This document shows positions 41,515 to 43,221 of a stretch of DNA of 52,923 bases, in pieces. The stretch lies in NCBI GenBank assembly GCA_913053655.1, contig CAJXFW010000001.1:1-52923 (forward strand), in the 5' to 3' direction. The notes under the pieces were generated by a model. It was given only the letters and a program-made list of their open reading frames with translations, was not told the DNA's origin and did no database searches. Positions within the stretch are counted from its first letter, which is position 1. Each line of letters opens with the position of its first letter. The position numbers and the translations under genes were made by a program. This DNA is from an uncultured Thiogranum sp. GTDB lineage: Bacteria > Pseudomonadota > Gammaproteobacteria > DSM-19610.

Positions 41515-43221
41515 TCAATTGTCGACGGGGCGAATGCTTTCCGTGTGCAGGGTAGCATCAAACGCCTTCTGTATAGCTTTCACATTCGGGTCATCTGTAA
41601 TGGCGGTCACTGCATCCGCCTGGCGCATTGCATCTGTACGACGCTGCTGCTCTGCAGGCGTGTTGTCGATACTTTGCTGCATTTCGATAGCAAGGCTCAG
41701 CTTGACCTGCAAACAGTCGCACAACAATTTTTCCAGGCGCTGCAAGCGCTCCTTGCTGAACAGTTGCTGGTGATTACTATCCAGCACCAGCTGCCAGCGA
41801 CCATCCTGCCGACTCTGTATCGAACAGTTCATGGCCAGTTCGCGCAACATGCCTTTGAGGTGCATGGCTTCTATCAGTACCGGCCAGTCAGCATCAGCGG
41901 AAACTGCGACCGGTTGCGCTGTCTCACGCTGCGCAGCAATCTTAGGGAACCTCTGACTAATTCCATCACCGTCATCCCGGCGTATGCCGGGATCCAGTGT
42001 TTTCAACGTACCGGATGCCGGCCTTCGCCGGCATGACGAATTAATCAGAGCTTCCTTGGTTGTTTGACTCTCGCCAGCCGCTGGTTTCTCTGCTGCTTTA
42101 GACACCTGCCTGGCAGGTGTCTCAATCTGCCCCGGCGCAGCCGGTCGAAATGCCAGCATGCGTAGCAACACCATTTCCAGGCCACCGCGCAGATCCGGCG
42201 CCAGTTGCAGATCACGCCGTCCGATCAGGCCGATCTGGTAATACAGCTGCACATCTTCGGCAGCCATACGCGCCGCAAGTTCCAGCACTTTTTCACGTTC
42301 GTCCAGCTGCTCATCCACGGCGTCGGGCAGGGTTTGTGCAACAGCAATGTGTTGCAGACAGGTCAGCATTTCGGCAAGCAGGGCCTCGTAGTCAGGCGCC
42401 TGCTGCGACAGACGATCAATAATGTTCAATATTCCCGCGCCATCGGCACCGGCCAGCGCCTCCAGCAGCTCGACTACCTGCCCGCGCTCGATGGTACCAA
42501 GCATGGTACGCACCTCCGCCTCGTGCACCGCACCGCCACCGAAGGCAATGGCCTGATCCAGCAGGCTGAGCGCATCGCGCATACTGCCGTCAGCTGCGCG
42601 TGCCAGCAGGCGCAATGCCGCGCTGTCGGTGTCCACTTTTTCGGCGTCCAGCAAGTACTGCAGATGACCTGTGATCAGCGGCATCGTCAGGCGCTTGAGA
42701 TTGAACTGCAAGCAACGCGACAGCACCGTAGCGGGCAATTTTTTCGGATCGGTGGTGGCCAGCAGAAACTTGACGTGCGGTGGTGGCTCTTCCAGTGTTT
42801 TCAACAGCGCATTGAAACTGTGCGCCGACAGCATGTGGACTTCGTCGATCAGATAGACCTTGTAGCGTGCATGCGTCGGTGCGTACTGGACGTTATCCAG
42901 CAGCTCGCGGGTATCCTCGACCTTGGTGCGGGAAGCCGCATCCACTTCGATCAGATCCACGCAGCGGCCTTCGTCGATCTCCAGGCAGCTCGAACATTGA
43001 CCGCAGGGCTCGGCGCTGACGCCGGTTTCACAATTCAGGGATTTGGCAAAAATACGTGCAACCGTAGTCTTGCCCACACCGCGGGTGCCGGTGAACAGAT
43101 AGGCATGGTGCAGACGATCATGGTCCAGCGCATTGATCAGGGCCTGCAGGACGTGCTCCTGGCCCACCATTTCGGCAAACTTGCGCGGCCGCCATTTACG
43201 AGCCAGAACCTGATAACTCAT
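41515..43221 (-). CDS. dnaX: DNA polymerase III subunit gamma/tau with a 38-aa MITE-derived insert
   Basis: [23 protein letters not shown]-terminal tau domain. Confidence 0.97.
41946..42055. mobile_element. 110-bp palindromic MITE, copy 2 (in frame inside dnaX)
   Basis: TIR GGAACCTCTGACTAA / TTAATCAGAGCTTCC (13/15); flanks TTAG / TTGG; same length and structure as 39914-40023. Confidence 0.9.

What the first reader, a model, noticed from the sequence alone, without database searches (positions are those of the whole stretch)
41942..42059. Palindromic MITE inserted in frame in the essential dnaX gene, adding 38 residues
Seen: a 110-bp element with 13/15 terminal inverted repeats is flanked by CCAA/CTAA on the coding strand. 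The total of 114 nt is 38 codons, translated as [38 protein letters not shown]. Removing it restores ...SQTTKIAAQ. The single flank mismatch is at a silent Thr position (ACC/ACT). Two intergenic siblings lie at 39914 and 43489. Known: in-frame palindromic insertions are described for Rickettsia palindromic elements, and the region after DnaX domain III is a variable linker. Inference: a repeat is creating new protein sequence in a replisome subunit, and its mRNA hairpin sits roughly where other bacteria make gamma by frameshifting.
Basis: partly seen in the sequence, partly recalled or inferred. Interest (0 to 1): 0.78.

Follow-up and report, generated by a model that had tools for sequence, protein, structure and literature searches.

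The report
Mini-transposon in frame inside DnaX linker
A 110-base mobile DNA repeat sits in frame in the flexible middle of the replication gene dnaX, where it likely adds 38 harmless amino acids; repeats surviving inside genes this way are already known, and in this genome most other surviving copies lie just behind the start codons of likely exported proteins.

Summary
Real, and of a known kind. The 110-nt element (TIRs 16/18, 4-nt flanks) adds 38 codons to dnaX. Eight relatives at 86-89% identity lack exactly 38 residues. Both junctions are bridged in three runs that may be the source, and a sister population likely carries an eroded, in-frame version. It is a MITE with IS5-like ends carrying two CGTC-type REP hairpins: 61 near-full copies here, with matching IS5 elements in congeners. 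Only one of four insertion geometries is stop-free, and that frame is also open in 27 of 40 non-genic copies, so the peptide looks like a passenger. It lies in a predicted disordered linker, and domain V stays conserved. The gamma-frameshift idea is unsupported: dnaX has no slippery site. Seven of nine in-gene full copies sit 1-4 codons after a start codon, six before a signal-peptide core (LptE among them). This scan noted that signal-peptide pattern before, on other DNA. Intragenic REPs in replication genes are published (PMC3733652).

The parts
41515..43221 (-). dnaX (DNA polymerase III tau/gamma), 568 aa, intact; domain III ends near residue 357, domain V spans 444-563
   Evidence: only full-length dnaX match in the genome
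41946..42055 (.). 110-nt MITE, read in frame on the - strand; with one target duplication it adds 38 codons
41942..41945 (.). 4-nt target duplication, downstream copy in dnaX (CTAA on the coding strand)
   Evidence: family-wide TSD test
42056..42059 (.). 4-nt target duplication, upstream copy (CCAA on the coding strand; the difference is silent in Thr388)
41946..41963 (+). terminal inverted repeat, 16/18 match to the other end; resembles IS5-family ends found in congeners
42038..42055 (-). terminal inverted repeat, other end
41970..41996 (+). CGTC-tagged REP unit: CGTC tag, 8-bp stem, 4-nt loop, CCA tail
   Evidence: sequence against the family description in PMC3733652 section 6
42012..42038 (-). 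second CGTC-tagged REP unit, inverted (tail CCG)
   Evidence: sequence
39914..40023 (.). sibling copy between the HIT gene and ORF 40024-40386, whose stop codon lies in the target duplication
43489..43598 (.). sibling copy with a decayed right TIR, between the SRP RNA gene and a DsrC-like gene

Best explanation
A 110-nt non-autonomous element with IS5-like ends and two CGTC-type REP hairpins sits in frame in the dnaX linker, likely placed there by an IS5-family transposase acting in trans, and it likely persists as a neutral, translated passenger. Shown: the element, its 4-nt YTAR-type duplication, the empty site in relatives, the 61-copy family, IS5 elements with similar ends in congeners, and the fact that only one orientation and phase is free of stops. 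Inferred: (1) an IS5 transposase, no longer found in this assembly, made the insertion; (2) ribosomes read through the hairpin and make full-length tau with a longer linker; (3) selection removed copies that broke genes or landed in folded domains. What is left are copies in linkers (dnaX, a GlcF-like protein) and, more often, in the n-region of signal peptides, which would be cut off after export.
For: Empty site: P0002-P0009 are 38 aa shorter at 86-89% identity, and L046 shows a 114-nt gap. No element was found in the dnaX CDS of the congeners scanned or of 80 metagenome loci, where 3 had a repeat just downstream of the gene. TSD is real: outer positions agree left and right (p about 1e-5 and 4e-6, 48 copies), and the rival palindromic-end model does not fit (p = 0.35). 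3 of 18 PF05598 loci in congeners are 1.15-1.17-kb IS5-family elements (NF033581, over cut-off) whose ends match the MITE TIR at 12-16 of 18 and are flanked by CTAG/CTAA/TTAA. The consensus has one open frame, which is open in 27 of 40 non-genic 110-nt copies, so the frame is a property of the family, not of dnaX. Residues 365-435 are low-confidence coil (pLDDT about 30) between well-predicted domains. Linker length varies from 37 to 85 aa among 104 homologues. Domain V dN/dS is 0.11-0.21 against empty relatives, with 22-24 amino-acid differences versus 20-22 among the empty relatives themselves. In-gene copies show no third-position bias. All 9 in-gene copies among the 60 evaluable near-full copies are in the single open geometry, expected 31% each (p about 2e-5). 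7 of 9 are 1-4 codons after a start, against 4.1% of in-phase target sites in codons 2-6 (p about 6e-9). 6 of those 7 precede a hydrophobic core, against 37% (p = 0.012). Orthologous start codons lie upstream of the insert in LptE, DUF3108, DUF481 and FlgH.
Against: No IS5 transposase was found in G000 (assembly 85% complete). The one DDE hit has different ends and scores best, below cut-off, as IS1380. Transposition was not shown. There is no expression evidence. The low pLDDT is partly due to the alignment having gaps there. The target-site null uses my own gene caller and a crude hydrophobicity rule, the 9 in-gene copies were classed by eye, and the tests were chosen after seeing the pattern. 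For 3 of the 6 full N-terminal copies searched, no usable orthologue was found; the seventh (C187) was not searched; one (C13) needs a GTG start. A -44 to -81 kcal/mol hairpin a few bases after a start codon could block initiation, and PMC3733652 section 15 warns that many N-terminal REPs may be outside the true gene.
Confidence: 0.8

Rival explanations
1. The hairpin has been recruited to make a gamma-like short DnaX: ribosomes stall at it, shift frame and stop inside the element, giving domains I-III only.
For: Strong hairpin. The -1 frame stops 6 codons and the +1 frame 4 codons after Thr388. The position is after domain III and before domain V. Bacteria make gamma by several different routes (PMC5009743 passages).
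Against: No X_XXY_YYZ heptamer in the gene, no A_AAG-type tetramer between codons 311 and 498, and the longest A/T run is 6, at codon 160. E. coli uses A_AAA_AAG, and transcriptional slippage uses runs of 9. The stops in the shifted frames come from the TIR and are the same in the family consensus. A likely sister allele has lost the first 33 nt, including the outer stem arm and those stops.
Confidence: 0.05
2. The 38 residues have acquired a function in the replisome, such as a longer reach for tau or a new charged binding surface, and are now selected.
For: The insert has lasted long enough to diverge 12% from its nearest copy without a stop, and part of it is likely shared with a sister population.
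Against: No codon-position bias in in-gene copies. 27 of 40 non-genic copies are equally open. The sister allele is eroded. No other protein of 312-994 aa with this peptide was retrieved (weak search, 6 candidates). No Pfam match.
Confidence: 0.07
3. The composite does not move as a unit by IS5 transposase. A short TIR palindrome came first, and REP hairpins were later inserted into it by a separate REP-specific enzyme.
For: The same TIR brackets several different cargos and, at one site, none. 42 loci are REP cores without TIRs. PMC3733652 section 7 describes Halothiobacillus neapolitanus CGTC-1 dimers as inserted within 41-bp palindromes.
Against: 49 copies have exactly the same 110-nt layout at unrelated sites, with site-specific 4-nt duplications, which fits spread of the assembled unit. 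Only one empty shell was seen among 80 extra TIR hits. This rival can explain how the composite first formed without explaining its spread.
Confidence: 0.15
4. The insert is an assembly artefact caused by a collapsed repeat.
For: No single contig spans the whole element in the laid runs (break between 41998 and 42021), and runs X1-X3 may be the source of this assembly.
Against: Both junctions are bridged with 0 differences at matching depth (51/48, 40/44, 49/49), and no empty joint is listed in those runs. Runs of two other studies show the same insertion point in diverged sequence. The insert keeps the frame and has a near-perfect duplication.
Confidence: 0.02

Closest known systems
Intragenic CGTC REPs (Di Nocera et al. 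2013, PMC3733652; I read the abstract, passages, sections 6, 7 and 15, and searched the supplements)
   Same: The inner units fit the CGTC-1 description (tag, 8-bp stem, 4-nt loop, CCA tail) and form a dimer. The paper lists in-frame REPs in dnaE, dnaE2, polA, uvr and recBCD genes, many near N-termini. It also notes H. neapolitanus CGTC-1 dimers inside palindromes that begin GGGaaGCTT.
   Different: dnaX and tau have 0 hits in the 4 supplementary files searched. The paper finds no transposase for CGTC repeats, whereas here the dimer is inside a TIR shell with 4-nt duplications that matches IS5 ends. The paper reads many N-terminal cases as misannotation; here orthologues place the start upstream in 4 genes.
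Rickettsia palindromic elements (RPE; Ogata et al. 2000, 2002, and Abergel et al. 2006, known to me only as described in passages of PMC10969869, PMC2229807 and PMC3733652)
   Same: 100-150-nt palindromic repeat with one open frame, inserted in frame in conserved genes. The RPE-bearing guanylate kinase is translated and active.
   Different: Different sequence family and host class. A smaller share is intragenic (9 of 60 evaluable near-full copies). Clear TIR, TSD and a candidate autonomous partner are present here.
MITEs derived from IS5-family insertion sequences (NCBIfam NF033581; 'IS5 subgroup, YTAR target' is recalled)
   Same: TIR sequence and 4-nt CTAG/TTAA/CTAA/TTAG flanks match IS5 elements in G007, G012 and G043. 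Many copies sit on stop codons (17 of 60 flagged).
   Different: The interior is a REP dimer, not a remnant of the transposase gene, and it carries a stop-free frame.
E. coli dnaX -1 frameshift cassette (PMC5009743 passages)
   Same: A strong mRNA stem-loop after domain III with a nearby stop in the -1 frame.
   Different: No slippery heptamer, so the defining feature is missing.

Membership tests
MITE | Short, no transposase gene, terminal inverted repeats | tested here: met
   110 nt, TIR 16/18
MITE | Target-site duplication | tested here: met
   18 of 60 exact and 19 with one mismatch; outer positions correlated, p about 1e-5
MITE | Dispersed multicopy family with empty sites in relatives | tested here: met
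   61 near-full copies; matches in 23 of 34 genomes of the genus; empty dnaX site
MITE of IS5 type | Ends shared with an autonomous IS5 element | tested here: met
   12-16 of 18 with the 6 ends of 3 IS5 elements in congeners; none found in G000
MITE of IS5 type | Mobilised in trans by that transposase | not testable with these tools
   needs a transposition assay
CGTC-1 REP | CGTC tag, 8-bp stem starting AT, 4-nt loop, CCA tail, inverted dimer | tested here: met
   41970-41996 and 42012-42038 (second tail CCG) against PMC3733652 section 6
CGTC-1 REP | Match to the published family consensus (Figure 2 of the paper) | not testable with these tools
   figures are not held
Rickettsia palindromic element | In-frame insertion in conserved protein genes, palindromic RNA structure (works like) | tested here: met
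Rickettsia palindromic element | Sequence membership of an RPE family | tested here: inconclusive
   no Pfam hit for the 38 aa and no Rfam hit over the element; no direct comparison with RPE sequences; the paper equates RPE-6 with CGTC-1, so only the inner hairpins are related
Rickettsia palindromic element | Insert shown to be translated in an active protein | not testable with these tools
   indirect only: conserved domain V
dnaX gamma frameshift cassette | Slippery heptamer (A_AAA_AAG or X_XXY_YYZ) just before the stem-loop | tested here: not met
   none in the gene
dnaX gamma frameshift cassette | Run of about 9 A or T for transcriptional slippage | tested here: not met
   longest run is 6 A, at codon 160
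dnaX gamma frameshift cassette | 3' stem-loop and nearby stop in the shifted frame | tested here: met
   both are generic features of the element

The most novel reading that the evidence does not exclude
IS5-family transposases are a missing vehicle for CGTC REPs. An IS5-derived TIR shell captures REP hairpins and spreads them as one unit. Because that unit has one stop-free frame, it is translated inside essential proteins (DnaX, LptE), with signal-peptide n-regions as the main safe harbour and the arm next to the start codon loosening to keep translation initiation possible.
Probability: 0.4. Interest if true: 0.55.

Novelty: new member of a known kind. Interest (0 to 1): 0.33.

Why it matters
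The dnaX case is a well-documented extra example of selfish repeats tolerated in frame in replication genes. It marks the tau linker as a place that accepts 38 foreign residues. Two family-level points are more useful. First, PMC3733652 left open what moves CGTC REPs, and this family gives a specific, testable candidate: IS5 transposases from congeners acting on a TIR shell around the REP dimer. Second, the surviving in-gene copies show where proteins tolerate insertions, namely linkers and signal-peptide n-regions. This affects start-codon annotation, since automatic callers would likely misplace the start of genes such as lptE here.

Tried and rejected
Congener genomes from GTDB gave shorter DnaX, but the linkers were too diverged for a clean empty site; the closer protein and metagenome relatives did give one. 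The search for an IS5 partner in the own genome found none, and 14 non-REP TIR hits inspected led to no transposase. No RNA holder was listed among sequencing runs; this is no evidence either way. Orthologue searches that failed: DUF3261 lipoprotein, 0 of 5 genomes; rhodanese, only 25-27% paralogues; DmsE-type cytochrome, one close hit cut at a contig end. The GlcF-like insert is shorter by about 29-38 residues in 3 congeners, but the gap is not clean. The peptide search found only the query (6 candidates, weak). Pfam and Rfam had no match to the element. The no-TSD model (palindromic 114-nt element) was rejected. Loosening of the 5' TIR arm in N-terminal copies (4.1 vs 2.6 differences, p = 0.009, one of 8 tests, uncorrected) is suggestive only: MFE did not differ, and two pairs of these copies may belong to shared subfamilies. 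Replication in congeners: 60 copies were fetched, chosen by likeness to the dnaX copy and so biased to open frames, and 59 were evaluable. By my reading 2 were in signal n-regions, 1 internal, 2 C-terminal extensions, 3 open but probably outside the gene; 2 closed-geometry candidates were flagged that I judged not to be in genes. Literature: 'dnaX' with 'miniature inverted-repeat' gave 0 papers. Searches listed no paper whose title or abstract reports enrichment in signal n-regions; PMC2229807 mentions one MITE-formed signal peptide. The library lacks most subscription papers, and Ogata 2002 was not held, so this is not proof of absence. One search (the genus name that sources gave to homologues) listed only ecology papers; none was read.

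Full report
Observation. The window holds an intact 568-aa dnaX on the minus strand at 41515-43221, followed by ybaB and recR, with the SRP RNA gene upstream. A 110-nt element at 41946-42055 has TIRs matching at 13/15 (16/18 when extended) and flanks CCAA/CTAA on the coding strand. With one flank it adds 38 codons after Thr388, and the flank mismatch is that codon's third base. The RNA folds at -64.5 kcal/mol, z = -8.2. The two siblings are real; the one at 43489 has lost its right end.

It is an insertion. In a search with residues 340-480, the eight best relatives (86-89% identity over the whole protein) are 38 residues shorter. Seven align with one clean 38-residue gap at the site and one with a split gap. 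Of three metagenome loci at 82-85% DNA identity, one gives a single 114-nt gap and two the same total split in two. No element was found in the dnaX CDS of the congeners scanned or of 80 metagenome loci. In runs X1-X3, which may be the source, both junctions are bridged with no differences at matching depth; no contig spans the repeat core, and no empty joint is listed. Runs X4 and X9, of two other studies, show diverged contigs (about 86-89%) that join element position 42024 to the upstream dnaX flank. This is a net in-frame loss of 33 nt, and in X9 a further 57 nt. X4 also shows the other junction. These pieces are short and shallow (21 and 48 letters on the shorter side, depth 14.6 and 2.4), so a shared, eroding insertion in a sister population is likely, not certain. 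X5 and X6 hold alleles without the element.

What the element is. nhmmer finds 173 related loci in the genome: 61 near full length, 70 partial and 42 core only. 23 of 34 genomes of the genus have matches. Sources label homologues of this DnaX as Thiogranum. Flanks follow Y-T-A-R, and their outer positions agree left and right (p about 1e-5), as a true 4-nt duplication predicts. Inside are two inverted units that fit the CGTC-1 REP description of PMC3733652 (section 6). That paper also notes H. neapolitanus CGTC-1 dimers inside similar palindromes (section 7) and finds no transposase for CGTC repeats (abstract). Among 18 PF05598 loci in congeners, three are complete IS5-family elements whose ends match the MITE TIR at 12-16 of 18 and have CTAG/CTAA/TTAA flanks. 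No such transposase was found in this 85%-complete genome. The same TIR also brackets single REPs, other palindrome families and, once, nothing.

Why it can sit in genes. The consensus has stops in five of six frames. Inside a gene the target can lie in two phases and the element in two orientations; only one combination is open, the one used in dnaX. That frame is open in 36 of 49 copies of exactly 110 nt, including 27 of 40 outside genes. An open frame therefore needs no selection to explain it.

Effect on DnaX. The insert lies in a linker whose length runs from 37 to 85 aa among 104 homologues. AlphaFold2 models it as low-confidence coil at 365-435 (alignment gaps lower this score). Domain V, which is made only if ribosomes pass the element, shows dN/dS 0.11-0.21 and no excess of changes. 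Differences from consensus in the nine in-gene copies fall 51/51/47 on the three codon positions, so there is no sign of selection on the peptide. I infer a translated, neutral passenger.

The gamma idea. E. coli shifts at A_AAA_AAG, and transcriptional slippage needs runs of about 9 (PMC5009743, 12 of 20 passages seen). This gene has no X_XXY_YYZ heptamer, and its longest A/T run is 6, far upstream. Both shifted frames stop within the element, but those stops belong to the family TIR, and the likely sister allele lacks them. Not supported.

Where other copies survive. Removing each copy in silico (60 of 61 evaluable) and scoring the flanks with a codon model, I classed 9 as inside genes. Two are internal: dnaX and a GlcF-like protein. 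Seven lie 1-4 codons after a start: LptE, DUF3108, DUF481, a rhodanese, a DUF3261 lipoprotein, a DmsE-type cytochrome and a lipid A acyltransferase-like protein. Six of these precede a hydrophobic core. All nine are in the open geometry, and I saw no convincing gene-breaking copy. Five more copies with an open frame and coding sequence on one side I judged to be outside genes. Against in-phase target sites in 2434 predicted genes, the expectations are 31% open, 4.1% in codons 2-6 and 37% of those in genes with a hydrophobic N-terminus (p about 2e-5, 6e-9 and 0.012). These tests are post hoc and rest on a home-made gene caller. Orthologues put the start codon upstream of the insert in LptE, DUF481, DUF3108 and, for a partial copy, FlgH; three searches gave no usable orthologue. 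At the DUF3108 site, G041 has a full in-frame copy (79/110 identical), G015 a decayed in-frame copy, G035 a copy shortened in frame, and G014 at most a remnant. Partial copies also lie at the N-termini of MtrB-, BatD- and OprD-family proteins and inside two neighbouring glycosyltransferases. In 59 congener copies, 2 were in signal n-regions and 1 was internal. The concern remains that a strong hairpin just after the start codon blocks initiation. The arm nearest the start is more diverged in these copies (p = 0.009 uncorrected), which would fit selection for translation but may reflect subfamilies.

Comparison and verdict. In-frame palindromic repeats in conserved genes are known from Rickettsia and other bacteria (passages of PMC10969869 and PMC2229807; section 15 of PMC3184786). 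REPs in dnaE, dnaE2, polA, uvr and recBCD genes are listed in PMC3733652; its supplements hold no dnaX or tau entry (2 of 7 'polymerase' rows seen). A search for dnaX with MITE found no paper. I had recorded the signal-peptide reading before consulting the scan's notes. Those notes hold 42 findings with these words in at least 36 genomes, 8 of them shown; they are unchecked and were not used as evidence. The finding is a true, cleanly dated member of a known kind, with a neutral explanation. Its best added value is the IS5-shell link for CGTC REPs and the n-region bias. Interest 0.33.

Noticed in passing
G000:C3:11639-11707, C22:24797, C65:9344-9404, C108:1772-1822, C5:2900-3027, C11:26927, C181:1770, C247:867, C77:3253-3279: The same TIR brackets different cargos: single CGTC REPs, a second REP-dimer type, an unrelated palindrome family, a GTAG-type repeat, and once nothing.
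   Followed up: partly
G000:C4:1077-1168 and C4:1765-1928 (L127): Two neighbouring glycosyltransferase genes (TIGR04282, TIGR04283) each carry an internal in-frame partial copy; in the second, an 18-nt piece has expanded in tandem in frame.
   Followed up: partly
G000:C16:23565-23674 and C16:24726-24821 (L133): Adjacent DmsE/MtrA-type and MtrB-type genes both have a copy at their N-terminus; in the second the element's own end could supply an ATG.
   Followed up: partly
G000:C33:16932-17041; L148, L149, L150, L151: An old insertion in the DUF3108 signal region is shared by congeners and stays in frame while decaying; its target overlaps the stop codon of the upstream gene.
   Followed up: yes
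flanks of 48 near-full copies, genome-wide: The second base of the duplication is changed T to C in 16 of 43 AG-type ends read inward but in 3 of 34 read outward, and CTAG is at 0.35 of expectation. This fits very-short-patch (Vsr) repair bias, recalled and not tested.
   Followed up: partly
genome-wide: 17 of 60 near-full copies were flagged as sitting on the stop codon of a gene.
   Followed up: partly
window 1-90, 20733-20801, 30509-30545, 32702-32790, 33996-34272: A separate GTAG-type palindromic repeat family, with several copies and inverted pairs.
   Followed up: no
window 34322-34398 and 35120-35166: Another pair of related short repeats, direct and inverted, about 800 nt apart (D6 and I18).
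   Followed up: no
window 40024-40386 (-): A 120-aa ORF after recR with no Pfam match; its stop codon lies in the sibling's target duplication.
   Followed up: no
window 41515-43221: This DnaX has no match to a tau domain IV model among its Pfam hits; domain III is joined to domain V by the linker alone.
   Followed up: no
G000:C186 (L031:1177-2727): An intact 516-aa DDE transposase scoring best, below cut-off, as IS1380; its ends do not resemble the MITE.
   Followed up: partly
L188 (G036:C170), L202 (G036:C397), L218 (G037:C41): In congeners: one internal in-frame copy and two copies two codons after a start codon, before a hydrophobic signal core.
   Followed up: partly
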